A stretch of 64,000 nt of DNA, taken from Patescibacteria group bacterium (GTDB lineage: Bacteria > Patescibacteriota > Patescibacteriia > UBA1558 > GWA2-36-10). The stretch lies in assembly GCA_041665505.1 (NCBI GenBank), contig JBAYIR010000002.1:75602-139601 (forward strand). Reading direction: 5' to 3'. Made by a program: the position numbers and the translations under genes. The notes beneath the pieces were generated by a model. It was not told the origin of the DNA, did no database searches, and saw only the letters and a list, made by a program, of their open reading frames with translations. Below are positions 676 through 36,642 of this stretch, piece after piece; position 1 is the stretch's first letter, and every line of letters begins with the position of its first letter.

Positions 676-786
676 ATTATTTTTTGTCTCGAGCTAGACC
701 AGTACTGAGTGCGGCCAAAGTGTCGAGAAATTAATTACTTATCTAACTATATTATAAAGCAAAATGCAAAAATTTGATACTCCGCT

Positions 787-23339: not shown

Positions 23340-23378
23340 TTTTCTGCAAATTGCCCCTTCGTAGCTATGGTGATATAA
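23340..23378 (+). promoter_or_regulatory. Candidate promoter for the small-ORF block.
   Basis: TTGCCC, a 17-nt spacer, then TATAAT, with an extended -10 TGATATAAT. It lies about 80 nt upstream of the ORF starting at 23457. Confidence 0.45.
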
Positions 23379-23456
23379 TTTTATTATAGTTAAATGGTCA
23401 ACTTCTTATACGCTGTCCTGTTATGACGAAATTATTAAACTTTTAATTATAATTTT

Positions 23457-23741: not shown

Positions 23742-23768
23742 CACCGGATATCCGAGGAGCGAGCTAGA
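23742..23768. repeat. GC-rich palindromic spacer element E1 (inverted-repeat arm A).
   Basis: Sequence CACCGGATATCCGAGGAGCGAGCTA. It contains the 10-nt palindrome CGGATATCCG and is inverted relative to 24410-24431. Confidence 0.7.
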
Positions 23769-23791
23769 ATAGATTTAATAAAATAATATAA

Positions 23792-24403
23792 ATGAAACAA
23801 AAAACTACAACAACTAAAGATGCTGTAGAATTAATGAATGAAATAAAGCAATCTTTGCATGACGATATTCTTACTGCATTAGACATATATAGTAAAACTG
23901 GAACTGGATTTTTTGCCATACCAAGACTTATATTTCCAGAGATAGATAACCTTGGGGCATATATGGCTGGAACAACAAAAAATAGCCCCAAAAATGCCAT
24001 CGCCTTTATAAAAAAATATTACGCGATAATTAATCCTGAATATACTAAAAAGGGAGCACTAATTTACTTTATTTATAGACACGGATTAATGCATCAACAC
24101 GTGCCTAAATTTGTTTCATATCGCAAAAAAAATATTGGCTGGCAAATATCTCTAACGATGGAAAATACTAAATCTACCCATTTAATGCTGATGGATAAAA
24201 CTATAATATTAGAAGGCAGACAACTATATACTGACACTATTTTTGCAATAGATGAATATATTAAAGATTTGCAATCTGATAAAAAAGTTTTGAATAATTT
24301 AATTATTGCGCATCAAATGATGATGTCTCCAATAAATAAAACTGCACTACTAAAAAATTATAAAAATTACATAAAACAAGCTGATCTAAATTTCTTAAAA
24401 TAA
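23792..24403 (+). CDS. Hypothetical protein with a candidate HEPN-like Rx4H motif.
   Basis: 203 aa with no confident family. RHGLMH is an R-x4-H pattern like the HEPN catalytic motif, but this is weak. The ORF is bracketed by inverted repeats A/A'. Confidence 0.4.
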   Translation: MKQKTTTTKDAVELMNEIKQSLHDDILTALDIYSKTGTGFFAIPRLIFPEIDNLGAYMAGTTKNSPKNAIAFIKKYYAIINPEYTKKGALIYFIYRHGLMHQHVPKFVSYRKKNIGWQISLTMENTKSTHLMLMDKTIILEGRQLYTDTIFAIDEYIKDLQSDKKVLNNLIIAHQMMMSPINKTALLKNYKNYIKQADLNFLK

Positions 24404-24409
24404 CTTTCT

Positions 24410-24458
24410 TAGCTCGGGACGTCGGATATCCCCGTCTGTTGTACGCAATTACGATAAT
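24410..24458. repeat. Spacer element E2 carrying IR arm A' and IR arm B.
   Basis: TAGCTCGGGACGTCGGATATCC (24410-24431) is the inverted arm of E1. GTTGTACGCAATTACGATAAT (24438-24458) is inverted relative to 24752-24772 at 18 of 21 positions. Confidence 0.7.
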
Positions 24459-24475
24459 CAATAATAGTATAAATT

Positions 24476-24739
24476 ATGTCATCAATAAAAGATATTTTAG
24501 GTCCATGGGAAGATCCAAATTTTGATAGTAGCCTAATAGAGAGATGTAGAAATGCTTGGGAAAAAGAACTTGATTTACTTACTAATGAAGAAATGGCTAC
24601 TTTTTTAAGACAAAATATTGCGGCTTCAAATATATTACCTCTCGCTAAAAAGAGAATCGCTGAAAAATATGATGACAATACAGAAATGTATGACGGAGAA
24701 CTACAAGAAGCTATTGAAAAATATAAAGAAAACAGATAA
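24476..24739 (+). CDS. Small acidic hypothetical protein.
   Basis: 87 aa, bracketed by inverted repeats B/B'. Composition is immunity/adaptor-like but no family could be assigned. Confidence 0.4.
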   Translation: MSSIKDILGPWEDPNFDSSLIERCRNAWEKELDLLTNEEMATFLRQNIAASNILPLAKKRIAEKYDDNTEMYDGELQEAIEKYKENR

Positions 24740-24751
24740 CCAAATACATTA

Positions 24752-24786
24752 ATTATCGTAACTACGCACAACACCGCGTATGCGGT
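24752..24786. repeat. Spacer element E3 carrying IR arm B' plus a palindrome.
   Basis: ATTATCGTAACTACGCACAAC is followed by the near-perfect palindrome ACCGCGTATGCGGT. Confidence 0.65.
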
Positions 24787-24812
24787 TCATGAGTTAAATT
24801 AAATTATTTTTT

Positions 24813-25259
24813 ATGAGTTATTACACAGCAACTGCCGAAAAATTTGAAGAGGCTAAAAAAATAGAGAATTATTACGTCACTATGAGTGGAGATTATGGTG
24901 GTGATCATTACTTATGCTGTCCAACTAAAAATATCAAATGTGATTTTAAAACATTACAAAATTTATTACTTGAAATTGATATTTGGGATAAAGAGGGTGT
25001 AGAGCTAAATTTTATTGAGATAAAACCTAGTAATTCTTGGCTAACTACTGGTGAAGGTGGCGGAGATTGCCTTTGGTTAGGAAGAAGGCTTGAGAAAAAA
25101 CGTAAAAGAATACAGGGAATCTTAAATGGTAAACGTAAAAATATTGGAACAAATTTAACAGATGTTTTAAAATTTATAGTAAAACTACCTATATTTATTA
25201 TAATGTTTTTACGCATACTTAATGCTTTAAACAAAAGAGATAAGGAAGAAAAAAAATAA
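24813..25259 (+). CDS. Hypothetical protein with a C-terminal TM helix.
   Basis: 148 aa with a Cys-containing N-terminal domain, a GEGGGD loop, and a basic tract followed by a hydrophobic helix. Confidence 0.4.
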   Translation: MSYYTATAEKFEEAKKIENYYVTMSGDYGGDHYLCCPTKNIKCDFKTLQNLLLEIDIWDKEGVELNFIEIKPSNSWLTTGEGGGDCLWLGRRLEKKRKRIQGILNGKRKNIGTNLTDVLKFIVKLPIFIIMFLRILNALNKRDKEEKK

Positions 25260-25370
25260 TTTAATTTTACACTCGCTCACCCAAACCCTTTCGACTCCCC
25301 TTCGGCTTCGCTCAGGGTCGCTCAGACTCGAGGAGCAGGCCGGCAACACTGGATATGAGGCAAAATTATG
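25260..25370. repeat. Large GC-rich modular spacer element E4.
   Basis: It contains CGACTCC, CTTCGCTCAGG (whose reverse complement occurs at 36494-36504), a triple CGCTCA, CTCGAGGAGC, and ACACTGGATATGAGG, which resembles E1. Confidence 0.7.
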
Positions 25371-25398
25371 ATAATTAATAACAATATAAATAAACAAT

Positions 25399-25932
25399 AT
25401 GAAAAATAAAACATTTATTCCCATATTTATTTTAGTGGCTATTGTCTTAGCTAATCAGATTGTTCATGCTGTTCCTGCTGTACCTGGACCTACGTGTGAA
25501 ATAACTGCAATAATTTCTAGTCTCGAAAAAAATATAGCAAACACAGAAGAACAAGGACAAAACTCCAGAACAAATTTTGATTATTACAAAATAAATTTAG
25601 ATATTCTTAGTATTTCCACATACCAACAGCGAGATGGTCTTTCTTGTGATAGTTTTGATATAGAACAAATTGAACAATCTGGCCAAAAACTTAGTTTAGA
25701 AGAGTACAACAACAATCCAATCTTAATTGGACAAAAAATCAAAGCAAAAATGAGTTTCGGTGGAGATGAACGGTTCAACGGTTATTTTTTATCAGAAATA
25801 CAAATCTTAGAAAATACGACTACCACACAAAATCCAAAAGACAACGAATCAAGCTATTGGTATTTTGTCATCCCTGTAATTACACTTTCATTGAGTATCA
25901 TTTTATACATATTATTTAGAAAAAAAAATTAA
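25399..25932 (+). CDS. Secreted protein with a C-terminal membrane anchor.
   Basis: The N-terminal signal peptide is MKNKTFIPIFILVAIVLANQIVHA and the C-terminal TM is YWYFVIPVITLSLSIILYILF. Confidence 0.45.
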   Translation: MKNKTFIPIFILVAIVLANQIVHAVPAVPGPTCEITAIISSLEKNIANTEEQGQNSRTNFDYYKINLDILSISTYQQRDGLSCDSFDIEQIEQSGQKLSLEEYNNNPILIGQKIKAKMSFGGDERFNGYFLSEIQILENTTTTQNPKDNESSYWYFVIPVITLSLSIILYILFRKKN

Positions 25933-25941
25933 AAAAACATT

Positions 25942-26754
25942 ATGCCAAAACTTAAAATATTATTACTCTTTAGTTTTATCTTCATTCTATCTGCTTGCAC
26001 ATTACCAGGATTCAAAAAAACTCCAGACCAAAATACCAATCAAAATACCAACCAAGTTGTAAATACCAATGACTCAGATGACAATGAATATAATCAAGAT
26101 AGCTGGCAATCTTTAATTGCCAAAAACTGCTTGAGTTTCAATGATGGCTGCAATGACTGTTTTCGTAGCGAAGCGGGAGCTACTGCTGCTTGTACCAAAA
26201 AAGCTTGTGCTGTTTACCAAAAGCCATATTGTCTAGACAATGAAGATGATGAAGTAGGGGCTAATCAGCTAGAACAGCTAGTTGAGCTAGGAACTGAATT
26301 TACTCTACACAAAAATGAATCAGCTATAGTCCAAAATATCGGCTACAAAATAACTATCACTAATTTTTTTAACTCCCCTTGTCCTGAAGGTGCTCAATGT
26401 TTGTGGTCCGGAATAGGTATAGCGCTACAACATAGCTTGAAAGGTGAAATCAAAGAAGGTATTGATATGACCGAAGCTTTTGGCTACAGCACAACTATCA
26501 TTGATACTGACTACCAAACTTTTGCCAAGCTCAAAATCCAAGTATCAACAAATACCAACGACTTGAGTGCTTGTCAAACTGCTAGTGACTGCGTAGCTGC
26601 TACTTGCTGTCACCCGACTAGCCTAGTCAACAAAAAATACGCTCCTGACTGCGCGGCTATATCTTGTGATATGAGCTGCCAAGTACCACTAGATTGTGGA
26701 GCTGCCAAAATAGCTTGTGAAAATAATAAATGTACAATAGTATCGGCTGAATAA
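25942..26754 (+). CDS. Lipoprotein with a Cys-rich C-terminal domain.
   Basis: The lipobox is FILSA|C. An NQNTNQNTNQ low-complexity linker is followed by more than 14 cysteines in the mature domain. Confidence 0.5.
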   Translation: MPKLKILLLFSFIFILSACTLPGFKKTPDQNTNQNTNQVVNTNDSDDNEYNQDSWQSLIAKNCLSFNDGCNDCFRSEAGATAACTKKACAVYQKPYCLDNEDDEVGANQLEQLVELGTEFTLHKNESAIVQNIGYKITITNFFNSPCPEGAQCLWSGIGIALQHSLKGEIKEGIDMTEAFGYSTTIIDTDYQTFAKLKIQVSTNTNDLSACQTASDCVAATCCHPTSLVNKKYAPDCAAISCDMSCQVPLDCGAAKIACENNKCTIVSAE

Positions 26755-26769
26755 ATATATGGAATACAT

Positions 26770-27411
26770 ATGATAAAAGGAATTATATTTGATATGGATG
26801 GAGTAATTTCAGACACTCAAAAATTACATTCACAAGTAGAAACGGAATTGCTGAGTAGATATGGAATTAAAATAACTCCATCAGAGATTACAGCAAAATA
26901 TGCTGGAGTTAGGACAAGAGAATTTTTTGATGATTTATTAAAAAAACAAAAACGAGAATATGATTTGGATTTGTTGATGGAAGAAAAATGGTCACAAATG
27001 GCAAAGTTTGCTTCAGAATCAGTTGATGCTATTGAAGGTTCTGTTGATCTAATTAAGAGATTATCTATAGCCAATTATCCTTTAGCAGTTGCCTCTGCCT
27101 CAAATTTAAACTATGTCCGCACTGTTTTAAAAACACTGGGTGTTATGGACCATTTTGCATATATTGTTAGCGGAGATATGGTTTCAAAAGGCAAACCAAA
27201 TCCAGAAAGCTTTTTGTTGGCATCATCAAAAATTGGAGTTCCTCCCGAATATTGCCTAGTTATTGAAGATGGAGTTAGTGGAATGCAAGCAGCAAAGACT
27301 GGTGGAATGAAATGTGTTGGATTAGTAAAAGATCTCAATAAAACATACCCCACAAAAAGTTTAGTAACTTCACTATCTGAAATTACTCAAGATTATATAA
27401 ATCAAATATAA
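26770..27411 (+). CDS. HAD-superfamily hydrolase, beta-phosphoglucomutase-like subfamily.
   Basis: HAD motif I is IIFDMDGVISDT. Downstream motifs include K...EDGVSG. Confidence 0.8.
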   Translation: MIKGIIFDMDGVISDTQKLHSQVETELLSRYGIKITPSEITAKYAGVRTREFFDDLLKKQKREYDLDLLMEEKWSQMAKFASESVDAIEGSVDLIKRLSIANYPLAVASASNLNYVRTVLKTLGVMDHFAYIVSGDMVSKGKPNPESFLLASSKIGVPPEYCLVIEDGVSGMQAAKTGGMKCVGLVKDLNKTYPTKSLVTSLSEITQDYINQI

Positions 27412-27443
27412 TTAAGAACGGTCAAAAAATAACATAAATATCT

Positions 27444-28832
27444 ATGAATGAATTAGAAACAATCAGCCCTCTAGATGGTAGATATGGCCAACAAACTAAA
27501 GCTTTGGCAAATATTTTTAGTGAACAAGCTTTGATGAAATATAGGCTAATAGTAGAAGTAGAATATCTAATAGCCTTGTCAGAAAATTCTGCTACTGATT
27601 GTCGAAAATTTTCTAAAGAGGAAATAGTTTTATTAAAAAAACTCTGCCAACTCTCTTTAGAAGACGCTAAAATTATTAAAGCCATTGAAACTGATGGCTA
27701 CGAAAATATACCCGCCACCAATCATGATCTTAAAGCTATTGAATATTTTATCAAAATCCAGCTAAAAAATAACTCCTTAAAAGATTCATTGGAGTGGGTG
27801 CATTTTGCTCTGACCTCTGAAGATACAAACAATATAGCCTATAGTCTGATGCTCGCAGATAGTATAGAAAATATTATCTTGCCGACCATAGAAAAATTAC
27901 AACAAGTATTAGAAGAGCTAGCTCAAAAATATAAGTCTACCCCAATGCTAGCTAGAACTCATGGCCAAGCAGCTTCACCAACTACTTTGGGCAAGGAATT
28001 TAAAGTCTTTAGCCAAAGACTAGATAGACAATTAGTACAACTAAGAAACACTGTCATTCTGGCTAAACTAAATGGAGCTACAGGTAATTATAATGCTCAT
28101 TATTTGGCCTATCCAAAAATCAACTGGCCAGAATTTACAAAAGAATTTATAGAAAAATTTAACAAAGAAAGAAAAATCAAATTAAAGCCAAATCTTATCA
28201 CTACTCAAATTGAATCGCATGATTCCTATATTGAGCTCTTTGATAATTTGCGTAGAATAAATACTATACTACTTGATACTAATCAAGATATGTGGAGATA
28301 TATCAGTGATGGATATCTCAGCCAAAAAATTGTCAGTGGAGAAGTCGGCTCTTCCACTATGCCACACAAAATAAATCCAATAGACTTTGAAAACAGTGAA
28401 GGAAATCTGGGTCTAGCCAATGCTCTTTTTACTTATTTTGCCACTAAGTTGCCTATCTCTAGACTGCAGAGAGATTTGTCAGATTCCACAGTAGAGAGAA
28501 ATTTTGGTGTGGCTTTTTCTCATAGCTTGATTGGCTATAAATCACTACTCAAAGGTCTAGGTAAAATAACTGTCAATGAAAAAATAATTATTGAAGAACT
28601 AGAAAGACATCCAGAAGTTATTTCTGAAGCCACTCAGACCATACTAAGACGTGAAGGGATAAATATGCCTTATGAAAAATTGAAAGAACTAAGCCGAGGA
28701 AATAAAACTACTATGGATGATTTTAGAAAATTTATTGACGACTTGGATATCTCTGATGAAATTAAAAAAGAATTGCATGAGCTCAGTCCAAAAAACTATC
28801 TAGGTATTGCCGAGCTCTTGGCTGATTACTAA
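27444..28832 (+). CDS. purB: Adenylosuccinate lyase.
   Basis: SPLDGRYGQQTKAL is the typical N-terminus. The fumarate-lyase signature region GSSTMPHKINPIDFEN is present. Confidence 0.9.
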   Translation: MNELETISPLDGRYGQQTKALANIFSEQALMKYRLIVEVEYLIALSENSATDCRKFSKEEIVLLKKLCQLSLEDAKIIKAIETDGYENIPATNHDLKAIEYFIKIQLKNNSLKDSLEWVHFALTSEDTNNIAYSLMLADSIENIILPTIEKLQQVLEELAQKYKSTPMLARTHGQAASPTTLGKEFKVFSQRLDRQLVQLRNTVILAKLNGATGNYNAHYLAYPKINWPEFTKEFIEKFNKERKIKLKPNLITTQIESHDSYIELFDNLRRINTILLDTNQDMWRYISDGYLSQKIVSGEVGSSTMPHKINPIDFENSEGNLGLANALFTYFATKLPISRLQRDLSDSTVERNFGVAFSHSLIGYKSLLKGLGKITVNEKIIIEELERHPEVISEATQTILRREGINMPYEKLKELSRGNKTTMDDFRKFIDDLDISDEIKKELHELSPKNYLGIAELLADY

Positions 28833-28901
28833 AATTTTCCTTTCCCCGTAAAAATAAGGTATAATTTAGCTAATAATTGACAATTAGCTAAATTTTAAAT
28901 T

Positions 28902-29831
28902 ATGACTGAAAACTTATTAATTCTATCATTCTCATTATTTCTAGTAATCAAAGGAGCTATTTTGTCCACCAAATATGCTGTCCGTTTAGCCAATAATTTT
29001 AAACTTTCCAAATATGTAGTGGGCTTTATTATTGTAGCTGTTATCTCTGTCCTACCAGAAACTTTTATTTCCATAAATTCTGCTTTGGAGGGTATACCAG
29101 CTTTTGGTCTAGGTACACTCTTTGGCTCCAATGTAGCTGATTTGACTTTGGTTTTTGTACTAATTATTGCCTTCTCCAAAAAAGATATTAAAATTGAAAG
29201 TAAAATACTAAAAAATAATATTATCTATCCTTTTTTATTTTTAATGCCCATAATTTTAGGCTTGGACGGTCACTATTCTCGCCTAGAAGGTACTGTTCTT
29301 ATCATCACTGGAGCTATATTTTATTATTTTGCTTTCAAAAATAACAATGATGAAGTGCCTGATATAGCCAAAGAAAAAAGCCGTCTGAAAAACTCCAGCT
29401 TATTACTACTTAGTATGGCCATGCTACTTATCGGTGCGCATTTTACAGTCACTTCAGCCACTAATTTAGCCCACTCTTTGGGTGTCTCACCAATACTAAT
29501 TGGCATGTTGATAGTGGGCTTAGGTACTACTATCCCTGAGCTTTTATTTTCTATCCAAGCTGTCAAAAAAAATGATGACTCTATGGCTATTGGTGACATT
29601 TTGGGCACTGTCTTAGCTGATGCTACTGTGGTGGTAGGTATTATTGCTATATTTAGTCCTTTTGACTTTCCCCAAAAAATTATTTATGTGACTGGTATCT
29701 TTATGCTCTTAGCGGCTTTTATTCTTTCCTATTTTATGCGCACTGGCAAAACTATTTCCAGAAAAGAAAGTGTTTTCTTATTTATATTTTGGCTTATTTT
29801 TGTCTTGACTGAATATTTTATCAATAGATAA
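28902..29831 (+). CDS. Ca2+/Na+ antiporter (CaCA family, YrbG-like).
   Basis: Two alpha-repeat motifs are present: GLGTLFGSNVADLTLV and GTTIPELLFSIQA.../GDILGTVLADATVVVG. Confidence 0.75.
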   Translation: MTENLLILSFSLFLVIKGAILSTKYAVRLANNFKLSKYVVGFIIVAVISVLPETFISINSALEGIPAFGLGTLFGSNVADLTLVFVLIIAFSKKDIKIESKILKNNIIYPFLFLMPIILGLDGHYSRLEGTVLIITGAIFYYFAFKNNNDEVPDIAKEKSRLKNSSLLLLSMAMLLIGAHFTVTSATNLAHSLGVSPILIGMLIVGLGTTIPELLFSIQAVKKNDDSMAIGDILGTVLADATVVVGIIAIFSPFDFPQKIIYVTGIFMLLAAFILSYFMRTGKTISRKESVFLFIFWLIFVLTEYFINR

Positions 29832-29875
29832 AATATTAAAAGAACTTATTTTTTAAGAGAAAAAAAATAAAATTT

Positions 29876-30460
29876 ATGAAAAAATGGAAAATAATAAACA
29901 CCAAAGATGTCTCCCCTAGCAAATGGTTTCCTGTTAGCCAGCAGACAGTCAAATTGGGAAATGGAACTATCCTTGATGATTATTTTATTTCTCCTTTGGG
30001 AAATGTGGCTATGATTTTACCATTTACTAAAGATAATTATATTGTCTTAGTCAAACAATACAAACATGCTATAGCTAAAATCATGATTGAGCTACCAGCT
30101 GGCTATCAACAAAAAGGAAAAACCATCAAACAAAGTGCTATAAATGAGCTAGAAGAGGAAACTGGTATCAAAACAAAAATCAGCAATTTAATTCCTCTAG
30201 GTAAAATTGCCAATAATCCTACTAAAACCACTCAAATTAGCTATGGTTTTATGGCCAAAAATCTTGAATTTAATTCCCAGCAAAATACAGATACAACTGA
30301 GGAAATAGAAATAATAAAAGCCAGGCCCCAACAAGTAATTGACATGCTAATGAAGGGCGAAATATGGGGTGCAGATTCAGTGGCTTTTATTTTAAAAGCT
30401 TACTACCAATATCCAAAATTATTTAATATAAAAAATGAACAAGCTAATTTTAGAATTTAA
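29876..30460 (+). CDS. NUDIX hydrolase.
   Basis: The Nudix box is [19 protein letters not shown] (Gx5Ex7REuxEExGu-like). Confidence 0.75.
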
Positions 30461-31025
30461 AAATCAAGTTATCAAAGCCTCTAGAAAATCTACTTTTATC
30501 CATCATAAATGGTTTATTAAATATCATTTAGAAATAGTAGAAAAAATTGCTCTAGAACTTTGCCAAAAATATAAAAAAGCCGATAAAGATTTGGTACTAC
30601 TTTTGGTTTGGCTTCATGACTATGGTAAAATATTAAATTTTAACAAACAATATGAGCTAACTTTAAGCAAAGGCAAAGAAAAATTGGAAACTCTAGGATT
30701 TCCAAAAGCATTTATAGCTAAAGCTATTGACTATGTGGAAATAATGGATAAAAAAGAAAAAATAAATCTTAAAACAACAGCAATTGAAATAAAAATTGTC
30801 TCTTCTGCCGATGGAGCTGCCCATCTAGTAGGCCCATTTTTCTCCCTGTGGTGGCATGAAAATTCTAATAAACATTTTGAAGAGTTGATGGAAGATAATA
30901 TCCAAAAACATCTAAAAGACTGGAACAAAAAAATTGTTTTAAAAGAAGTAAAACAAGCCTTCAAAAATAGACATAATTTTTTATTGGAACAGTGTGGCCA
31001 ATTTCCTGATAAATTTTTAAAATAA
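30435..31025 (+). CDS. HD-domain phosphohydrolase.
   Basis: [10 protein letters not shown] contains the H...HD metal-binding motif. Confidence 0.55.
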
Positions 31026-31036
31026 TTTTTAAATAC

Positions 31037-31408
31037 ATGCAAAAAAATCAAAAAATATATAAAACTATTGATGAGTATATTTCTTCCTTTCCTAAAGATG
31101 TTCAAAAAAAACTAAAAGAAATAAGAAGACTGGTCAAAAAACAAAGCCCTCTAGCACAAGAAAAGATAAGCTATCAAATGCCGACTTTTGTTTTAAACGG
31201 TAATCTATTACACTTTGCCGCATATAGCAAACATATTGGTTTTTATCCCACCCCTAGTGGCATTAAAGCCTTTAGCAAAGAATTGAGTAAATACAAAAAT
31301 TCCAAAGGAGCGGTACAATTTCCTATCACTGAAGAGCTACCTATCAAACTAATAGAAAAAATAATAAAATATCGAGTAAAAGAAAATAGTAAAAAAACTG
31401 CCCTCTAG
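31037..31408 (+). CDS. DUF1801/YdhG-like domain protein.
   Basis: 123 aa. ISYQMPTFVLNGNLLHFAAYSKHIGFYP resembles the DUF1801 core. Confidence 0.45.
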   Translation: MQKNQKIYKTIDEYISSFPKDVQKKLKEIRRLVKKQSPLAQEKISYQMPTFVLNGNLLHFAAYSKHIGFYPTPSGIKAFSKELSKYKNSKGAVQFPITEELPIKLIEKIIKYRVKENSKKTAL

Positions 31409-31415
31409 GCAGTTT

Positions 31416-32111
31416 TTATTGTTTTGATTTTCTGACAAAAGCATTTATATTCCAATTGGTTTTATAGACTCCTTCCGGTTCCAAATCAAAATGGGTAGTC
31501 TTTAGTAAGTAAACTAATTCTCCGGTAGTGAAAGAATGATAATATCGCCAGACAGTGCCACCTTCATCAGTAGTCCAAGGAATAAAAAAATCATTCCAAG
31601 AACGCTTTGACCAAAACTTTTCCAAGGCATAACGCATATATTTTTTTTGCCAAAGATTCCAATTGGTCATAAAAAGCAAACCACCTGGTTTGAGCCAACG
31701 ATTGGCCTTGAAAAGTAAATCAAGTCTTTCTGCTCTAGTTGGTAAATGATGAAAAGAAGCTACCATAAAGACCATATCAAAAGTAGCTGGCTCAAAAGAT
31801 AAATCCGACATATCGGCTACTACAAATTTGGCTTGCGGATGACTAGTTCTAGCTTGGGCTATCAGCTGTTCACTGAAATCTACTCCCAGATAATTGAGCT
31901 TTTTGTCTGACTGCTCCAAAGATTTAAGCAGACGACCATTACCACAGCCCAAGTCTAGTATCTTGAAGTTGTTTTTAATATGTGGTATAAAGACTTGTAA
32001 CTCTTTCCAAGGATAAGCCCGAGTAGCTGAAAACTCTTTGGCGATATCATTGTAGAGTAAACGCAAATCATTTTTTACTTTTTCACTTTTCATGGATAGA
32101 AAACAAAACAA
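31416..32111 (-). CDS. Class I SAM-dependent methyltransferase, Trm9-like candidate.
   Basis: Motif I is ILDLGCGNGRLL. It also has DMVFMVASFHHL and a 231-aa size. It is divergently overlapped with the elp3 homolog. Confidence 0.7.
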   Translation of the reverse strand: MFCFLSMKSEKVKNDLRLLYNDIAKEFSATRAYPWKELQVFIPHIKNNFKILDLGCGNGRLLKSLEQSDKKLNYLGVDFSEQLIAQARTSHPQAKFVVADMSDLSFEPATFDMVFMVASFHHLPTRAERLDLLFKANRWLKPGGLLFMTNWNLWQKKYMRYALEKFWSKRSWNDFFIPWTTDEGGTVWRYYHSFTTGELVYLLKTTHFDLEPEGVYKTNWNINAFVRKSKQ

Positions 32112-33702
32112 AATTTTAGATAAAATAGTACTAGATCTTTATGAGTATAAAGATTCTAGCGAACTTGAGTTTGTCAAAGCTTTGCGTCAAGTATTTTCTC
32201 GCTACAAAATGACCCCAACTGCTAAAGCTAATATTATTGTAGCATATAAAAATTTGATTAAAAAGGGAAAGTTGAAGGCCAATAAAAACTTTGCCGATCG
32301 CCTGGTTAAAAGAGCCGTGCGGACTATGAGTGGTGTTTCGGTCATTACTGTCTTGTCCAAGCCCTTTGTCTGCCCTGGTAAATGCGTTTATTGCCCAACT
32401 GAACCAGGCATGCCCAAAAGCTACTTGTCCAATGAACCAGCCGCTGCTAGAGCTAAGATGAATCTTTTTGACCCAATCAGACAGGTGACTATGCGTATTC
32501 AGGCTTTGGAAAATAACGGCCACCAAGTAGATAAACTAGAACTACTTATCCTAGGCGGCACCTGGTCTGTTTATCCAGAAAAATACCAAATAGAATTTGT
32601 GCGTGATCTTTTTTATGCTGCCAATACCTTTGGACAAAAACGCAAGAGAGCTGCTCTATCTCTAGAAAAAGAGCAAAAAATAAATGAAAACACCAGATAC
32701 AAAATTATTGGTTTGACTCTGGAAACTAGACCAGATTATATAAGCCCTACTGAGCTCAAAAGAATGAGGACTCTGGGTACTACTCGCGTCCAATTGGGTG
32801 TCCAGCATACTGACAACAAAATTCTTGATTTGATAGTGCGTGGACATAGTATTGAGCAGTCTATCCAAGCTACTAGGCTGCTCAAAGAAGTGGGCTTAAA
32901 AGTAGATCATCATTATATGCCAGATTTACCCGGTTCCAGTCCCGCCAAAGATTTGAAAATGATGAAATATGTTTATAGCTCCCCTGATTTGCAACCAGAC
33001 CAAATAAAAATATACCCTTGTGTGGTCAATGAATATGCTGAGCTAAACAAATGGTATCAAGCCGGCAAATACAAACCCTACTCTGCTAAACAATTATTGG
33101 ATTTACTTTTAAAAATAAAAGAAATTACTCCGCCTTGGATAAGAATCAACCGTTTGATTAGAGATATACCAGAAGAAAGTATTATTGCTGGTAATAAAAT
33201 CACCAACCTCCGTCAATACTTACAAACAGAATTAAAAAAACAGGGCAAATTTTGTCAGTGTCTCAGATGTCGAGAAGTTAGAAATGATAGTGAAAATAGT
33301 GCTAAGGCTATACTAGTCAAAAGAGAATACCGTGCTTCTTTGGGTGATGAAATATTTATTAGTTTTGAATCTGAAGATAAAAAAATACTCTATGCCTTTT
33401 TGAGATTAAGATTCAATGACCAAAAAGATGAAAATATTTTTGCGGAATTAAAAAATGCTTCACTAGTCAGAGAGCTACATGTCTACGGCAAAATGATTCC
33501 AATTTATAATGAAGATCAAGATGACGAGCTGTCACAAACTCAACACCTAGGCTTTGGCAAAAGACTAATGGCTGAAGCAGAGAAAATAACTAAAGATAGA
33601 GGTCTAGCTAAAGTAGCAGTTATTTCTGGCATTGGGGTAAGGAACTACTACCAAAAACTGGGCTATCAGCTAGAAGGCACTTATATGACCAAAAAACTCT
33701 AA
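32092..33702 (+). CDS. elp3: Elp3-family radical SAM plus GNAT protein (tRNA uridine-34 carboxymethyl synthase homolog).
   Basis: The radical SAM cluster motif is CPGKCVYCP. The SAM domain runs through VQLGVQHTDNKIL, and a C-terminal GNAT acetyltransferase domain follows. At 536 aa it matches archaeal/bacterial Elp3. Confidence 0.85.
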   Translation: MDRKQNKILDKIVLDLYEYKDSSELEFVKALRQVFSRYKMTPTAKANIIVAYKNLIKKGKLKANKNFADRLVKRAVRTMSGVSVITVLSKPFVCPGKCVYCPTEPGMPKSYLSNEPAAARAKMNLFDPIRQVTMRIQALENNGHQVDKLELLILGGTWSVYPEKYQIEFVRDLFYAANTFGQKRKRAALSLEKEQKINENTRYKIIGLTLETRPDYISPTELKRMRTLGTTRVQLGVQHTDNKILDLIVRGHSIEQSIQATRLLKEVGLKVDHHYMPDLPGSSPAKDLKMMKYVYSSPDLQPDQIKIYPCVVNEYAELNKWYQAGKYKPYSAKQLLDLLLKIKEITPPWIRINRLIRDIPEESIIAGNKITNLRQYLQTELKKQGKFCQCLRCREVRNDSENSAKAILVKREYRASLGDEIFISFESEDKKILYAFLRLRFNDQKDENIFAELKNASLVRELHVYGKMIPIYNEDQDDELSQTQHLGFGKRLMAEAEKITKDRGLAKVAVISGIGVRNYYQKLGYQLEGTYMTKKL

Positions 33703-33808
33703 ACAAAAGAGTGCCTCTATTTCGTTGACACAAATTACAAAATATACTTAAATATAGACGAAATGACCTTTCCACCAACCATCCACCCTTTCCCTAAGGA
33801 GGAAAAAG

Positions 33809-34261
33809 ATGAACCTGAACCTGAGTTGGTTTGAAGTCCAGAGCTACACCGAGCAGGATTTCTTCATCCGTCACCTCAAGCTTGGCTGCCACAGGCAGTA
33901 CTTTCTTCCCAGCAAACGTCGACTCATTCTTGATGTCTGCATCCCCATACTACAAGCCATCCGTGAGGGTAAAGGCATAACCCAGGAGAGCTGGGACCTG
34001 GTCAGGCTGGCTGAGAGTCGTCAGTTCCGACGTTCCGAGATCGAACCAACTATCTGGGACATCTACCAGGAGTTCAGTTCGCCTATGAACAGTCTCAAGG
34101 CTGCCAGATATCTCGGGCTGTCCCAGCGCCACTGCCTTCGCATCATCGCTGGTCTGGCTCGCCTCAACGACAATGTGCACAAGTCCAAGAAGAAGGGCTG
34201 GCAGGTGCCGGTCGTCGCTCTTGATGATTGGTTGATCAAGTATCGTCCGGCCACAAATTGA
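33809..34261 (+). CDS. Excisionase/AlpA-type helix-turn-helix protein of mobile-element origin.
   Basis: The C-terminal NSLKAARYLGLSQRHCLRIIAGL...KKKGWQVPVVALDDWL fits the Xis-family HTH (HTH_17) pattern. The first ~80 aa are unassigned. Confidence 0.5.
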   Translation: MNLNLSWFEVQSYTEQDFFIRHLKLGCHRQYFLPSKRRLILDVCIPILQAIREGKGITQESWDLVRLAESRQFRRSEIEPTIWDIYQEFSSPMNSLKAARYLGLSQRHCLRIIAGLARLNDNVHKSKKKGWQVPVVALDDWLIKYRPATN

Positions 34262-34275
34262 CCAACAACGATGAA

Positions 34276-34306
34276 GCCGGTCGCGCGCAGCGCGCGACCG
34301 GCTTTA
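34276..34306 (+). terminator. Strong GC hairpin terminator.
   Basis: GCCGGTCGCGCG-CAG-CGCGCGACCGGC forms a perfect 12-bp stem followed by TTT. Confidence 0.7.
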
Positions 34307-34376
34307 AAATTAATATACAATATTGCATATACGAGACAATATGCTAAACTAAATAGCGTAATTATTATCTACCAAT

Positions 34377-35639
34377 ATGATAAAACTAGATAAAATAGAT
34401 TCACAAATTGCCAAAATATTAACTCAGGAATTGGAGCGCCAAAGAAATGGAGCGGAAATGATTGCTTCAGAAAATTTTGTCTCCGAGGCAGTATTACAAG
34501 TAGCTGGCTCAGTTCTGACCAATAAATATGCTGAAGGCTACCCCAACAAAAGATACTATGGTGGCAATGAATTTATAGACCAAGCTGAACAACTAGCTAT
34601 TGATAGAGCCAAAAAACTATTTGGAGCTGAGCATGCCAATGTTCAGCCTCACGCTGGTTCACAGGCCAACATGGAAGCTTATTTTGCCTTGGCTGAACTA
34701 GGTGATACTATTTTGGGATTTTCTCTAGCTCATGGCGGACATTTGACACACGGGCACCCAGTCAATTTTTCTGGCAAATTTTATAATTTTGTCAGCTACG
34801 GTGTAGATAAAGAGACCGAAAGAATAGATATGGAAGAAGTCCGCTCTCAAGCTATTAAACACCGCCCAAAAATAATCTTAGCTGGGGCTAGCGCCTATTC
34901 TCGCCAAATAGATTTTAAAGCTTTTAAAGAAATAGCTGATGAAGTCAAAGCTTATCTAATGGTAGATATGGCTCATATTGCAGGACTAGTAGCTGCTGGT
35001 CTTCATCCTGATCCAATTCCTTATGCTGATGTAGTCACTACTACTACTCATAAAACTTTGCGCGGTCCAAGAGGAGCAATGATACTATGTAAAACTAAAG
35101 ATAGACTAGATCCTAATGGTAGGAAAACTCTCGCCCAAAAAATAGACAGTGCTGTTTTTCCAGGTATGCAAGGTGGACCACTGGAGCATATCATTCTAGC
35201 TAAAGCTGTGGCTTTTGGCGAAGCCCTAGAACCAGCCTTTAAAGACTACCAAAAACAAGTTATTAAAAATTGTAAAACTCTGGAAAATAAATTCCGCCAA
35301 GCTGGAGTGCGAATGGTTTCAGATGGTACTGATAATCATCTCTTGATGATAGATGTTACACCACTAGGTTTATCGGGTAAAGAAGCGGAGAATTTACTAG
35401 ACAAGGTTAATATTTTTACCAACAAAAATATGATTCCTTATGATAAGCGGACTCCTTTTGACCCCTCAGGTATTAGACTGGGTACAGCTGCACTTACTAC
35501 TCGCGGTCTGAAAGAAAAAGAAATTGAAATTGTAGCTGATATATTGATAGAAACTTTAAAAACCAAACAAGCTAGTAAAAAAAATAAGCTCGCTATTATT
35601 GATTTAATGAAGCAATTTAAACTATACCCAAAACTATAA
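34377..35639 (+). CDS. glyA: Serine hydroxymethyltransferase.
   Basis: The N-terminus reads [39 protein letters not shown]. The PLP-lysine loop [15 protein letters not shown] is present. Confidence 0.95.
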
Positions 35640-36475
35640 TGGACAAAATACTAGATGGCCTAAAATTAGCCACCACCATACAACAAGAAATAAAAGAAGA
35701 TTTGGCCAAAAAAAATATTAGACCAGGTTTGGCTGTTATTTTGGTTGGCGATGACTCGGCTAGTCGACTTTATGTCAGTAAAAAGAAAAAGGCTTGTTTG
35801 GATGTTGGTATTGAATTTCATGAATATTTACTAAAAGCTGATAGTAGCCAAGAGAATATCTTAGAGACTATAGATTTTTTAAATCAAGACGAACAAGTCA
35901 ATGCTATTTTAGTTCAATTGCCCTTACCAAAAAAATTTGACACTGACAAAATAATCAAAGCTATTGATCCCAAAAAAGATGTTGATGGCTTTCATCCAGC
36001 TAATATTGAAAACTTCTTAAAAAACAAAGCTTTGATTACCCCTGGTCTGCCACTGGGTATACTTAGGCTGCTAGAAGAAACTAAAGAAAATCTATCTGGC
36101 AAAACAGCGGTGATAGTATCAAGAAGTAAAGTTTTTTCTAAGCCGATGATAAAAATATTAGAGGATAGAAATATACCAGTATCTTTGGTAAATCCCGATG
36201 ATAAAAATCTAAACGAAAAAACAAAACAGGCTGATGTCTTAATAGTATCCTGTGGCCAAGCCTTCCTCATTAAAAAAGATATGGTCAAAACTGACGCTAT
36301 TATTATAGATGTGGGCACAAATAAAATAGACAAAAACTATGTAGTCGGCGATGTTGACTACACTAGTGTCTTTCCTAAAGTAAAATTCATTACTCCGGTG
36401 CCAGGCGGAGTAGGACCAATGACCGTAGCAATGCTGCTATATAACACTGTTAAGCTACATCAGGCTGGAAAATAA
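35639..36475 (+). CDS. folD: Bifunctional 5,10-methylene-THF dehydrogenase/cyclohydrolase.
   Basis: ILDGLKLATTIQQEIKE...GLAVILVGDDSASRLYV and the C-terminal PVPGGVGPMTVAMLL are present. The start overlaps the glyA stop. Confidence 0.93.
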   Translation: MDKILDGLKLATTIQQEIKEDLAKKNIRPGLAVILVGDDSASRLYVSKKKKACLDVGIEFHEYLLKADSSQENILETIDFLNQDEQVNAILVQLPLPKKFDTDKIIKAIDPKKDVDGFHPANIENFLKNKALITPGLPLGILRLLEETKENLSGKTAVIVSRSKVFSKPMIKILEDRNIPVSLVNPDDKNLNEKTKQADVLIVSCGQAFLIKKDMVKTDAIIIDVGTNKIDKNYVVGDVDYTSVFPKVKFITPVPGGVGPMTVAMLLYNTVKLHQAGK

Positions 36476-36596
36476 ACACACAGTCCACGTCCTGAGCGAA
36501 GACGAGCTAAGCTCGTCGGAGTCGAAGGACGGAGTAGGACCAATGACCGTAGCAATGCTGCTATATAACACCGTTAAATTGAGCTTAGCTAAATAA
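36413..36596 (+). repeat. Direct duplication of the folD 3' end flanking a 51-bp GC-rich repeat-element insert.
   Basis: Copy 1 is 36413-36475 and copy 2 is 36527-36596. They share GGAGTAGGACCAATGACCGTAGCAATGCTGCTATATAACAC exactly. The insert 36476-36527 contains the hairpin GACGAGCTAAGCTCGTC flanked by CGAAG direct repeats. Confidence 0.85.
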
Positions 36597-36602
36597 AAAA
36601 AT

Positions 36603-36637
36603 AATCCAGCCCTTCGCGAAGGGCTGGATTATTTTTT
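36603..36637. terminator. Perfect 28-bp palindrome (REP-like copy 1) acting as a bidirectional terminator.
   Basis: AATCCAGCCCTTCGCGAAGGGCTGGATT is an exact palindrome flanked by an A-run and a T-run. It lies between folD (+) and the exonuclease gene (-). Confidence 0.8.
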
Positions 36638-36642
36638 AATAT

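What the first reader, a model, noticed from the sequence alone, without database searches (positions are those of the whole stretch)
23742..36527. Dispersed family of modular GC-rich palindromic repeat elements (shared modules CGAGCTA/TAGCTCG, GGATATCC, CTTCGCTCAGG, CGACTCC)
At least four intergenic GC-rich elements are built from shared sequence modules: E1 (23742-23768), E2 (24410-24436), E4 (25260-25370) and the folD insert F (36476-36527).
- rc(F) CCTTCGACTCC...CTTCGCTCAGG aligns with E4 CCTTTCGACTCC...CTTCGCTCAGG, an 11-nt exact block plus a 7-nt block in the same order.
- E2 AGCTCG-ggacg-TCGGA parallels F AGCTCG-TCGGA.
- E1 and E2 share GGATATCC plus CGAGCTA in inverse order.
- A possible fifth copy lies at 690-730 (GTCTCGAGCTAGACC...GGCC...GTCGAG).

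Each element contains internal hairpins, for example CGGATATCCG and GACGAGCTAAGCTCGTC. These look like a MITE/REP-like mobile repeat family that is GC-rich relative to its host. I cannot assign it to a named family.
Basis: seen in the sequence. Interest (0 to 1): 0.55.

Follow-up and report, generated by a model that had tools for sequence, protein, structure and literature searches.

The report
Hairpin-tipped replacement cassette on folD
The GC-rich patches are real repeats of two kinds, and one caps a 124-base foreign copy of the folD gene's end that displaced the original end, a structure joined at the same codon in at least six species of these tiny bacteria.

Summary
The window is a 35% GC Patescibacteria chromosome. 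Its GC-rich intergenic patches share motifs far beyond chance, but they form two families, not one.

**Family A** is a short stem-loop, G(Y)CCTGAGCG(W)AG..variable loop..YCGAAGG(R)C. It makes up F (36482-36530) and the left half of E4.

**Family B** is AACAC plus a small hairpin plus GAGG. It makes up E1, E2, an unlisted copy at 24751-24812, and the right end of E4.

- The 690 copy is weak.
- Only F folds better than shuffled sequence.

**F** is the 3' tip of a 124-nt insertion that is absent from a relative with 97% identical folD. The insertion is a second copy of folD's last 16 codons, a new tail with its own stop, 6 nt of spacer, and the hairpin. It is joined to the resident gene at GGC|GGNGTNGG. 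The old end now lies untranslated downstream.

The same architecture, with periods of 102-130 nt, occurs in five other Patescibacteria species. One of them carries five tandem units. In four species the two copies differ at 31 nucleotides and at no amino acid.

No recombinase, cargo gene or Rfam family is attached. The element behaves as a mobile gene-end replacement cassette, but its enzyme is unknown. It is not a classic MITE or REP.

The parts
36406..36453 (+). folD core copy 1. These are the translated last codons, GVGPMTVAMLLYNTV(K), and form the left arm of the 48-nt direct repeat.
   Evidence: the repeat finder D12/D2; translation.
36452..36475 (+). Tail 1 with its stop codon (KLHQAGK*). 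This is the incoming C-terminus. It is 20/24 identical to the KLHKARK* tail of the cassette in distant species L145.
36476..36481 (+). AT-rich spacer between the stop codon and the hairpin arm.
   Evidence: Read directly from the sequence. The other five species have 3-9 nt here.
36482..36530 (+). Family-A hairpin arm (finding element F). Sequence: AGTCCAC-GTCCT-GAGCGAAG-[ACGAGCT A AGCTCGT]-CGGAGTCGA-AGGAC. The outer stem pairs 36489-36493 with 36526-36530. The inner hairpin is 36502-36516.
   Evidence: DNA fold -11.5 kcal/mol, z=-1.9. 44/49 identical to the L145 arm. No Rfam match.
36530..36577 (+). folD core copy 2. This is the displaced resident end, untranslated, and forms the right arm of the direct repeat.
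   Evidence: It is contiguous with the tail and terminator that are orthologous to the empty site in L002.
36576..36596 (+). Tail 2 with its stop codon (KLSLAK*), the resident former C-terminus.
36604..36638 (.). Resident terminator-like hairpin ATCCAGCCCTTCGCGAAGGGCTGGAT followed by a T run. L002 also has it, and an inverted near-copy lies at 58916-58950.
   Evidence: (I4)
25286..25329 (-). E4 left half: nested family-A hairpins. The inner unit at 25297-25318 reads ACCCTGAGCGAAGCCGAAGGGG on the - strand. It sits in the loop of an outer copy, TCTGAGCGA..GAGTCGAAAGGG.
25272..25285 (+). CTCGCTCACCCAAA motif preceding the E4 hairpins. The same 14-mer plus a hairpin follows a homologue of the 203-aa ORF in unrelated contig L008.
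25343..25398 (+). Family-B element IG4 (E4 right end), AACACTGGATAT-GAGG.., 54 nt upstream of ORF 25399.
   Evidence: IG1 vs IG4, 0/2000 shuffles reach the score
23728..23791 (+). Family-B element IG1 (E1), AACAC-CGGATATCCG-AGGAGCGAGCTAGA.., 52 nt upstream of ORF 23792.
24408..24470 (-). Family-B element IG2 (E2 plus the adjacent TGTTGTACGCAATTACGATAAT) in inverted orientation. It is the left inverted repeat flanking the CdiI_3-like ORF.
   Evidence: IG2 vs rc IG3, 0/2000 shuffles reach the score
24751..24812 (+). Family-B element IG3, not in the finding. Sequence: ATTATCGTAACTACGCACAACAC-CGCGTATGCGG-TTCATGAG. It is the right inverted repeat flanking the CdiI_3-like ORF and lies 43 nt upstream of ORF 24813.
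686..731 (+).
   Evidence: Folds no better than shuffles. Its only supported similarity is to the L002 95-nt insert, CAAAGT(GGA)GTCGAGAAAT(C)TAA.

Best explanation
The window holds two families of short GC-rich non-coding elements.

**Family A** is a stem-loop with conserved halves, CCTGAGCG(W)AG and (GAG)YCGAAGG, closed by a 5-bp stem. Its loop is variable and can hold another hairpin or another copy of the element.

**What F is.** At folD this hairpin is the 3' tip of a 124-nt gene-end replacement cassette. The cassette carries, in order:
1. a copy of folD's last 16 codons;
2. a different C-terminal tail with its own stop;
3. a few AT bases;
4. the hairpin.

It is joined to the resident gene exactly at GGC|GGNGTNGG, the codons for G|GVG of the conserved PGGVGPMT motif. 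folD therefore stays intact, and the resident end is pushed downstream, where it decays.

**Shown:**
- the insertion is polymorphic between strains;
- the displaced copy has the quality of a recently translated sequence;
- tail 1 and the arm are of foreign type;
- the junction is the same in six species;
- one species carries a tandem array.

**Inferred:**
- The cassette is moved in trans by an enzyme that acts on the hairpin.
- That enzyme also acts on the look-alike folD site. The arm's 3' end, CGGAGT-CGA-AGGAC, mimics folD's CGGAGTAGGAC.
- The topology would then resemble an integron cassette or an att site. Each insertion regenerates the target, which allows arrays and allows loss by recombination between the repeats.

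**Family B** (E1, E2, IG3 and the E4 right end) is a separate repeated intergenic unit. It bounds the small accessory ORFs at 23792-25259. Its role is unresolved; it may be a cassette boundary or a shared 5' region.
For: **F is an insertion.**
- Relative L002 (folD 97% aa, 89% nt overall) has neither the insert nor the duplication.

**The architecture recurs with an identical junction.**
- L004/L005, from two independent assemblies.
- L133/L158, L138/L156 and L139, from the GTDB and JGI scans.
- L145.
- Periods are 124, 124, 130, 103, 103 and 102 nt. Host folD is only 55-71% identical to the window's.

**The displaced copy was recently functional.**
- Copy 1 and copy 2 differ at 8, 5, 11 and 7 nt in four species, with 0 amino-acid changes. 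P is at most 3e-4 for each species under random substitution.
- The tails of copy 2 carry a nonsense mutation in L133 and a frameshift in L004.

**The cassette looks horizontally transferred.**
- Window versus L145: arm 44/49, tail 1 20/24, core 37/45. Their hosts' folD proteins are 63% identical.

**Other support.**
- L156 carries five tandem units.
- The hairpin also occurs away from any folD duplication: E4; inside folD tails as in-frame GPERSRKAE or LSEAEG*; at another gene's 5' end; and in the SHMT-folD spacer.
- The stem is 95.8% paired across 8 copies.
Against: - No recombinase, transposase or HUH gene lies in the 64-kb window or next to any cassette.
- No cassette has cargo, and no autonomous version was found. 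The arm is absent from IMG/VR.
- Covariation in the stem is weak: one compensatory pair, and 25/500 shuffles reach the observed score.
- In the window, copy 1 is 44/45 identical to copy 2. This needs either a left crossover inside the core or later gene conversion, which a simple single-site integration does not predict.
- A single ancestral event spread by ordinary recombination would also explain the constant junction.
- The five-unit array could be an assembly loop, because the 102-nt unit is shorter than a read. Contig L138 breaks at this point.
- Hairpin density is low: two copies in 64 kb.
Confidence: 0.4

Rival explanations
1. There is no dedicated mobility. The structure arose once by illegitimate recombination at a GC-rich microhomology, GGGCGG or GGAGT..AGGAC, between a hairpin downstream of folD and the folD coding sequence. 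It has since spread between species by natural transformation and homologous or homology-facilitated recombination. The conserved folD codons on both sides serve as anchors. The hairpin is only a stable 3' structure.
For: - The junction is constant, and the identity block runs from GGC|GG to the end of the core.
- The arm's 3' end matches the core start apart from a 3-nt gap, in both the window and L145.
- The window's copy 1 is resident-like except for its last codon position, as expected for a left crossover inside the core.
- No enzyme was found.
- Type IV pilus and competence-type genes are present in the window.
- Homology-facilitated illegitimate recombination is an established route (PMC6382021, and my own knowledge of de Vries and Wackernagel 2002).
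Against: - A neutral 100-nt insert that direct repeats readily delete is unlikely to reach six lineages whose folD is only 55-71% identical to the window's.
- Core identity between species is 75-85% with no long perfect run, which makes it a poor substrate for recombination.
- The hairpin unit also appears at other positions, with its own short flanking repeats. This suggests the hairpin itself moves.
Confidence: 0.27
2. One reading: a classic MITE/REP-like repeat moved by a transposase encoded elsewhere (RAYT/IS200-IS605-like or another type). The folD repeat is its target-site duplication.
For: - The elements are strain-polymorphic small GC-rich insertions.
- The L002 95-nt insert has 13-14-nt terminal inverted repeats (TGTCATTTCGAGCG / CGGTCGAGATGACA), at most a 2-nt AT duplication, and a strong fold with z=-5.3.
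- Hairpins with conserved flanks are what HUH transposases recognise (my own knowledge).
Against: - A repeat of 48-70 nt with diverged tails is far outside any known target-site duplication.
- All 31 differences between the copies are synonymous, so the copies were not made identical at insertion.
- The junction is the same in six species.
- F has no terminal inverted repeat beyond 5 bp and no GTAG.
- Copy number is low.
- No transposase lies in the window.
Confidence: 0.1
3. F is the scar of a larger integrative element (phage or island with a tyrosine integrase). Its attP carried a replacement folD 3' end. The attL and attR sites remain and the body was deleted, or F is a CIME-like non-autonomous derivative.
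For: - The layout is attL/attR-like: gene restored, old end displaced, and 6-20 nt identical across both junctions.
- In L003 a 2.9-kb island lies directly downstream of folD.
- Integration into the 3' ends of protein-coding genes is well known, for example trmE and dusA (PMC8409611, PMC4482086).
Against: - All six species have only 102-130-nt units with nothing between tail 1 and the arm. Six independent complete deletions are implausible.
- No integrase lies nearby.
- The arm and the arm/folD junction are absent from 2.9 million viral contigs.
- The L003 island lies beyond the resident tail, not inside the cassette.
Confidence: 0.1
4. The shared motifs are chance or compositional, and the folD duplication is an assembly artefact.
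For: - The short 6-7-mers taken alone are not rare.
- The sequence is a metagenome assembly.
- The five-unit array in L156 may be an assembly loop.
Against: - The 11-mer expectation is 0.01.
- The motifs are enriched in intergenic DNA, P=8e-4 to 0.01.
- The alignments beat shuffles.
- The same architecture appears in independent assemblies made with different assemblers and from different samples.
Confidence: 0.02

Closest known systems
Integrative elements that target the 3' end of a gene and carry a replacement end (tRNA, tmRNA, trmE or dusA-type islands; CIME-like non-autonomous derivatives)
   Same: The target gene is restored by element-borne sequence. The old end is displaced downstream. 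An identity block starts at the crossover point and runs to the gene's end. Tandem accretion is possible.
   Different: The unit is only 102-130 nt. It has no integrase, no cargo and no arm-type binding regions. One end is a conserved hairpin. No autonomous partner is known.
Integron gene cassettes with attC sites
   Same: A cassette ends in an imperfect hairpin with conserved ends and a variable centre. It is inserted at a fixed site that is regenerated, so arrays can form. The cassette encodes no recombinase.
   Different: There is no GTTRRRY/RYYYAAC core at the hairpin foot, and no IntI, attI or Pc nearby. The cassette holds a gene fragment, not an ORF. The target lies inside a housekeeping gene.
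REP/REPIN elements with RAYT, and bacterial MITEs such as Correia, RUP and Nezha
   Same: Short GC-rich extragenic stem-loops that are polymorphic between strains and lie at gene ends.
   Different: There is no GTAG head, no doublet organisation and low copy number. No RAYT or transposase was seen. There is no short identical target duplication. F is tied to one codon of one gene across species.
Rickettsia palindromic elements (RPE)
   Same: A palindromic selfish element in a small AT-rich genome that can sit in-frame inside protein-coding genes. Here 27 nt add GPERSRKAE to folD in L004 and L006 (PMC1779305, PMC10969869).
   Different: RPEs are 100-150 nt and lineage-specific to Rickettsia. 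They do not duplicate the host gene's end. No sequence relationship was tested.
Yeast mitochondrial GC clusters and 'byp' elements
   Same: GC-rich hairpin insertions in a very AT-rich genome. They are modular, nested, and found in both intergenic and coding DNA (my own knowledge: Weiller 1989; Lang 2014).
   Different: They occur in a different domain of life. byp elements are bypassed by ribosomes, and nothing here requires bypassing.
C-terminal displacement in polymorphic toxin loci (CDI/Rhs orphan modules)
   Same: An incoming module replaces the 3' end of a gene by recombination at a conserved coding motif. The former end is left as a downstream orphan, and arrays of orphans build up.
   Different: Those modules carry a toxin tip plus an immunity gene and are under diversifying selection. 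Here the replaced part is 23 codons of a housekeeping enzyme, with no obvious payoff.

Membership tests
REP/REPIN-RAYT | Imperfect palindrome headed by a conserved GTAG/GTGG tetranucleotide | tested here: not met
   The arm starts AGTCYAC-GYCCT. None of 12 aligned copies has GTAG.
REP/REPIN-RAYT | Tens to hundreds of extragenic copies, often as inverted doublets | tested here: not met
   There are two family-A copies in 64 kb and one or two per 13-21-kb related locus. The whole genome was not available.
REP/REPIN-RAYT | A RAYT (Y1 HUH) gene flanked by the repeats | tested here: inconclusive
   No Y1_Tnp hit was found among about 60 window ORFs, or in the precomputed annotation for the remaining genes. 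The rest of the genome was not seen.
MITE | Terminal inverted repeats matching an IS family | tested here: not met
   F has only a 5-bp closing stem. The L002 95-nt insert does have 13-14-nt TIRs, but no parent IS was identified.
MITE | Short identical target-site duplication | tested here: not met
   The flanking repeat is 48 nt plus diverged tails. Across species the copies differ only synonymously.
Integron cassette / attC | R''/R' core sites RYYYAAC ... GTTRRRY at the hairpin foot | tested here: not met
   The junction reads ..AAGGRC|GGNGT. No GTT is present at the arm's end.
Integron cassette / attC | IntI integrase with attI next to the array | tested here: not met
   No tyrosine recombinase lies in the window. 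The only one seen is XerA-like, in relative L162 at another locus.
Integrase-borne island at a gene 3' end | Direct repeats (attL/attR) that include the target gene's 3' end, with the gene restored | tested here: met
Integrase-borne island at a gene 3' end | Integrase gene and cargo between the att sites | tested here: not met
   Only 55-80 nt of non-folD DNA lies between the repeats in all six species.
Diversity-generating retroelement (VR/TR pair) | Mismatches confined to template adenines, with a reverse transcriptase nearby | tested here: not met
   The differences are of all types and are all synonymous. There is no RT in the window. L003 has a DGR 9 kb away that is unrelated to folD.
Intrinsic terminator | GC-rich hairpin followed directly by a T run | tested here: not met
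   The scan calls none of E1, E2, E4 or F. A hairpin followed by a T run lies further downstream, at 36604-36638, and is conserved in L002.
Known structured RNA (Rfam), including hammerhead and other ribozymes | Covariance-model match | tested here: not met
   No hit at gathering score in the window. No relevant hit at E<=10 over F, E<=1 over the island or E<=5 over a viral look-alike.
TIGR-Tas array | Tandem ~36-nt dual-spacer units next to a Nop-domain Tas gene | tested here: not met
   The units here are single, or 102-nt repeats of folD sequence. No Nop-domain gene was found.
Rickettsia palindromic elements | 100-150-nt palindrome of a defined RPE family | not testable with these tools
   No RPE library was available. 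Only the behaviour (in-frame insertion) is comparable.

The most novel reading that the evidence does not exclude
The folD cassette may be a new class of minimal mobile element. It would be a roughly 100-nt, protein-less, hairpin-tipped unit that homes to one conserved codon stretch of an essential gene. It carries its own replacement gene end so that the insertion is harmless. It would be driven in trans by an unidentified structure-specific recombinase, possibly a Xer-like enzyme, the only recombinase type seen in these loci. The family-B sites around the small accessory ORFs could be a second cassette system of the same logic.
Probability: 0.2. Interest if true: 0.8.

Novelty: new variant of a known kind. 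Interest (0 to 1): 0.62.

Why it matters
Patescibacteria have tiny genomes with few recognised mobile elements. Little is known about how their DNA is exchanged.

This cassette replaces the end of an essential gene at the same codon in lineages whose folD proteins are only 55-71% identical to the window's. It carries no gene of its own, and its non-coding tip is more conserved than the coding sequence beside it.

That points to one of two things. Either an unrecognised site-specific recombination activity exists in these bacteria, or recombination between species is unusually effective.

It also has practical consequences:
- Gene callers produce folD proteins with odd C-termini (GPERSRRAE, LSEAEG) that are translated repeat.
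- Assemblies break or loop at this locus.

If an enzyme is found, the hairpin plus its target would form a very small, self-contained insertion module.

Tried and rejected
- **Rfam.** Run at gathering score on the whole window, and at permissive E-values on the island, on F and on a viral look-alike. Nothing relevant was found.
- **tRNA or tmRNA fragments as att cores.** ARAGORN found none. The TTCGACTCC in E4 lacks a matching T-stem.
- **Hammerhead or K-turn reading of CUGA..GAA.** The core does not fit and there is no Rfam hit.
- **DGR.** The mismatch pattern is wrong.
- **Terminator.** There is no T run.
- **TIGR-Tas.** I read PMC12045711. The architecture differs.
- **Phage attP.** Three IMG/VR scans were run. 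They gave only chance or coding hits. One subset of high-GC contigs carries tgtcatCCTGAGCGAAG..AGTCGAAGGAtc, which hints that the hairpin halves are more widespread. I did not follow this up.
- **Literature string searches.** Searches for the motif and for its translated peptides found only primers.
- **A Patescibacteria repeat search and a folD/attB search.** Neither returned a paper describing such an element.
- **Extending the contig beyond the window.** Two exact-protein look-ups failed, so genome-wide copy number is unknown.
- **blastn-short of the elements against the window.** The output was swamped by AT-rich noise.
- **Integron-like or Xer/dif-module reading of the island 23457-25400.** The four family-B sites occur in mixed orientation, and a XerA-like/integron-integrase-like gene sits at the orthologous spot in relative L162. 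However, there is no dif-like 11-6-11 site and no GTTRRRY, so this stays a lead only.

Full report
**Context**

The window is 35% GC and has no tRNA genes and no Rfam hits. It is part of a 188.5-kb metagenome contig, ENA ERZ27249449 k141_1380258. One of its proteins is also recorded at NCBI as a hypothetical protein from a 'Patescibacteria group bacterium' MAG, locus tag WCV71_02050. The best named folD relatives are Candidatus Komeilibacteria and Parcubacteria. Genes are tightly packed. Only 8.8% of the window is intergenic, at 32% GC.

**Checking the observation**

- *E4 and F.* CTTCGCTCAGG occurs twice only, at 25306(+) and 36491(-), against a composition-based expectation of 0.01. TTCGACTCC occurs twice only, at 25290(+) and 36518(-), against 0.26. 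The two blocks lie in the same order.
- *E1 and E2.* GGATATCCGA plus CGAGCTA align in inverted orientation, with P=0.006 against shuffles.
- *The 7-mers.* CGAGCTA alone is not rare, at 9 copies against 4.3 expected. It is, however, concentrated in intergenic DNA: CGAGCTA[AG] has 4 of 6 copies there (P=8e-4) and TGAGCGA has 4 of 7 (P=0.002).
- *Folding.* As single strands, only F folds better than shuffled sequence, and only modestly (-11.5 kcal/mol, z=-1.9). E1, E2, E4 and the 690 element do not.

**Two families, not one**

*Family B* is an element of about 30-60 nt. It consists of AACAC, a small hairpin (CGGATATCCG or ACCGCGTATGCGGT), GAG(G), and an AT-rich run.

- The motif AACAC[CT]G[GC][AG]TAT occurs three times in 64 kb, at 23740, 24770 and 25345. 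Each copy lies 43-54 nt upstream of a + strand ORF start.
- A fourth, inverted copy is E2 plus the adjacent TGTTGTACGCAATTACGATAAT.
- The four pairwise alignments tested beat shuffles. IG2 vs rc(IG3) and IG1 vs IG4 were reached by 0/2000 shuffles, and the other two gave P about 0.006.
- The 87-aa ORF at 24476-24739 matches Pfam CdiI_3 (CDI immunity proteins) at 2e-7. It therefore sits between inverted copies of about 45-60 nt.

*Family A* is the stem-loop G(Y)CCTGAGCG(W)AG .. YCGAAGG(R)C.

- It forms F and the left half of E4.
- In E4 an inner unit (ACCCTGAGCGAAGCCGAAGGGG on the - strand) sits in the loop of an outer copy (TCTGAGCGA..GAGTCGAAAGGG).
- In F the loop holds the palindrome ACGAGCT-A-AGCTCGT.
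- E4 is thus a composite of both families.

The 690 element has no supported partner in the window. It does align with a palindromic insert found in a related strain, as CAAAGT(GGA)GTCGAGAAAT(C)TAA.

**What F really is**

F is bracketed by a 48-nt direct repeat, 36406-36453 and 36530-36577, 98% identical. This is the only gene-end duplication in the window. Both copies encode the folD C-terminal core GVGPMTVAMLLYNTV.

- Copy 1 continues as KLHQAGK* and is the translated end.
- Then come 6 nt of spacer and the 49-nt hairpin arm.
- Copy 2 continues as KLSLAK*, followed by a terminator-like hairpin.

A Logan contig from a close relative, L002, has folD 97% identical at the protein level and is 89% identical in nucleotides over 5.9 kb. 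It carries a single end (KLAQVK*) and the same terminator-like hairpin, with no insert. The alignment shows a 124-nt window-specific insertion.

Conversely, L002 has its own 95-nt palindromic insert between the SHMT stop and the folD start. That insert has 13-14-nt inverted ends and folds with z=-5.3. The window lacks it. Small GC-rich insertions are therefore gained and lost between strains.

**The same architecture in other species**

Several folD homologues have C-terminal extensions (LSEAEG, GPERSRKAE, GPEQSRRAE, ILSKRSEPKG). These are translations of the family-A hairpin.

Fetching their DNA, and scanning GTDB representative genomes and JGI metagenomes for the arm/copy-2 junction, gave five more species with the window's layout:

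- L004/L005, from two independent assemblies;
- L133/L158;
- L138/L156;
- L139;
- L145.

In every one, copy 1 with its tail and stop is followed by 3-9 AT-rich bases. Next comes AGTCYRC-GYCCTGAGC..TCGAAGGRC. Copy 2 then starts at exactly GGNGTNGGNCC. Periods are 124, 130, 103, 103, 102 and 124 nt. Host folD is 55-71% identical to the window's. No case has genes between tail 1 and the arm. L156 has five identical tandem 102-nt units before the last copy. L138, from the same species, breaks there, so the copy number is uncertain.

**Copy 2 is a recently displaced functional end, not a decayed duplication**

In L004, L133, L139 and L145 the two cores differ at 8, 5, 11 and 7 nucleotides and at no amino acid. 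For each species P is at most 3e-4 if the substitutions were random. Each copy has therefore spent its history as translated folD sequence. The tails of copy 2 are starting to decay, with a nonsense codon in L133 and a frameshift in L004.

In the window, tail 1 (KLHQAGK) is 20/24 identical to the L145 cassette's tail (KLHKARK), and the arms are 44/49 identical. The cores are only 37/45 identical, and the hosts' folD proteins are 63% identical. The non-coding tip is thus better conserved than the synonymous sites beside it. That points to horizontal transfer or strong constraint.

The window's copy 1 is resident-like (44/45 to copy 2) except for one base near its 3' end. At that base the window's copy 1 and L145's copy 1 both have T, while the window's copy 2 and L002 have C. 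The left crossover was therefore inside the core, or the copies were later homogenised.

**The hairpin outside the cassette**

The unit also occurs:

- in-frame inside folD tails, as 27 nt flanked by GCCGAAG and GCTGAGG in L004 and L006;
- as the end of a VELAKT-LSEAEG* tail that itself displaced an older KLAEAK* tail in L003;
- at the 5' end of the neighbouring RNase H-like gene in L003;
- in the SHMT-folD spacer in L156;
- in E4.

Its orientation relative to transcription is not fixed. This argues for a DNA-level role rather than an RNA role. Across eight short copies the stem is 95.8% paired, but covariation is thin: one compensatory pair plus C-G/U-G alternation, and 25/500 shuffles reach the score.

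**Mechanism**

*Shown:* an insertion that is polymorphic between strains; an incoming foreign-type tail and arm; a displaced resident end; one junction shared by six species.

*Inferred:* how the join is made.

- Both junctions share GGC|GGNGT, with 6-20 identical nt.
- In the window and in L145 the arm's 3' end (CGGAGT-CGA-AGGAC or AGGGC) mimics the core start (CGGAGTAGGAC or AGGGC).
- The folD site itself lies in a small hairpin, TACTCCG-N8-CGGAGTA.

I favour a trans-acting enzyme that works on the hairpin foot and on the look-alike folD site. The topology would resemble an integron cassette or an att site. It would regenerate its target and so allow arrays, and allow loss through the repeats (confidence 0.4).

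The main rival is a single illegitimate event followed by spread through transformation and homologous recombination, anchored on the conserved folD codons (0.27).

- A classic MITE with a target-site duplication is contradicted.
- A deleted integrase island is contradicted by six cargo-free cassettes and by the absence of the arm from IMG/VR.
- No recombinase, transposase or HUH protein is encoded in the window.

**Comparison with known systems**

- It works most like an element that integrates into a gene's 3' end, or like an integron cassette. It fails the defining tests for both: no integrase or cargo, and no GTTRRRY or IntI.
- It resembles REP, MITE and RPE elements in being a small GC-rich palindrome in an AT-rich reduced genome. 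It lacks their heads, their terminal repeats, their short duplications and their copy number.
- It is not a DGR, a terminator, a TIGR array or any Rfam family.
- The searches I ran for the motif, its peptides and Patescibacteria repeats found no description of such an element.

I rate it a new variant of a known kind, with a 0.2 chance that it represents a new class of minimal, protein-less homing cassette.

**Limits**

- Only 64 kb of the genome was available, and two attempts to extend it failed.
- All comparison loci were chosen through folD or its neighbours, so the apparent folD hot spot is partly an ascertainment effect.
- The junction pattern used in the scans was strict, so prevalence is a lower bound.

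Noticed in passing
window 39580-40510 (and L002 5650-6055): Two adjacent pilin-like genes with an N_methyl domain are 46-48% GC over 39-41 kb, with long stretches at or above 67%, in a 35% GC genome. They share segments that are 70-93% similar. They are heavily rearranged relative to the close relative L002, which also carries an extra GC-rich stretch of about 400 nt with an 81-aa ORF. GC-rich hairpins lie beside them at 39524-39555 and 43197-43227.
   Followed up: partly
window 12955-13460 (- strand): A GC-rich island lies between uvrA and secG. It encodes a very basic protein of about 149 aa (MSLKSATYRPLRRSRGKSKF...) with no Pfam match, and it contains an internal 33-nt repeat at 13313 and 13403.
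   Followed up: partly
window 33809-34307: A GC-rich 150-aa ORF with no Pfam hit is followed by a perfect 14-bp-stem hairpin (34274-34304, z=-6.3). A 145-aa ORF with a weak HTH_17 hit lies at a similar position, just after the radical-SAM gene, in L006/L007. The hairpin aligns as a window-specific 29-nt insertion against L002, but that alignment lies at the contig end.
   Followed up: partly
window 23261-31415: This 8-kb block holds the small-ORF island, a HAD hydrolase gene, purB, a Na/Ca exchanger gene, a NUDIX gene and others. In relatives L163/L164 and L006 it is absent from between the bactofilin-like gene and the methyltransferase gene. Relative L162 instead has a XerA-like/integron-integrase-like tyrosine recombinase directly next to the bactofilin gene.
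   Followed up: partly
L156 13207-13818 (JGI Ga0210044_10000169); L138: Five identical 102-nt tandem units (folD core, tail KLSRVKNK*, hairpin) are followed by a final copy with an ILSKRSEPKG* tail. The NCBI contig of the same species ends inside the array. This is either real amplification or an assembly loop.
   Followed up: partly
L002 1356-1450: A 95-nt palindromic insert with TGTCATTTCGAGCG / CGGTCGAGATGACA ends lies between the SHMT stop and the folD start. The window lacks it, and there the two genes overlap. At most 2 nt (AT) are duplicated. A related element occupies the same spacer in L156 (12330-12425).
   Followed up: partly
window 36604-36638 and 58916-58950: The folD terminator-like hairpin ATCCAGCCCTTCGCGAAGGGCTGGAT has an inverted near-copy, 86% complementary over 35 nt, downstream of the type IV pilus ATPase gene. 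The GC-rich hairpin therefore recurs at a second gene end, and its CCCTTCG/CGAAGGG core echoes the family-A stem.
   Followed up: no
window 23792-24403; L008 5897-6734; L011 5729-6367: The 203-aa ORF has no Pfam domain and contains an HGLMHQH motif. It has about 18 homologues at around 50% identity in unrelated contexts, one of them inside a type I restriction-modification operon. In L008 the homologue is also flanked by short inverted blocks (CGTATCTG, TTCGCGA) of different sequence, which I noticed by eye.
   Followed up: partly
L003 10850-13730 and 19414-20810: In the species of P0005, a 2.9-kb island lies between folD and the RNase H/WYL gene. It holds a TrmB-like regulator gene and three ORFs without Pfam hits. 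A diversity-generating retroelement (RVT_1 plus bAvd) lies about 9 kb downstream.
   Followed up: no
IMG/VR loci L050, L053, L055, L064, L097, L119: High-GC viral or prophage contigs carry tgtcatCCTGAGCGAAG-[variable]-AGTCGAAGGAtc. These are the same two conserved halves as family A. The hairpin type may therefore be far more widespread than Patescibacteria, and it may be the source of recurrent spurious peptides such as HPERSEG in gene calls; that last point rests on my memory and was not tested.
   Followed up: partly
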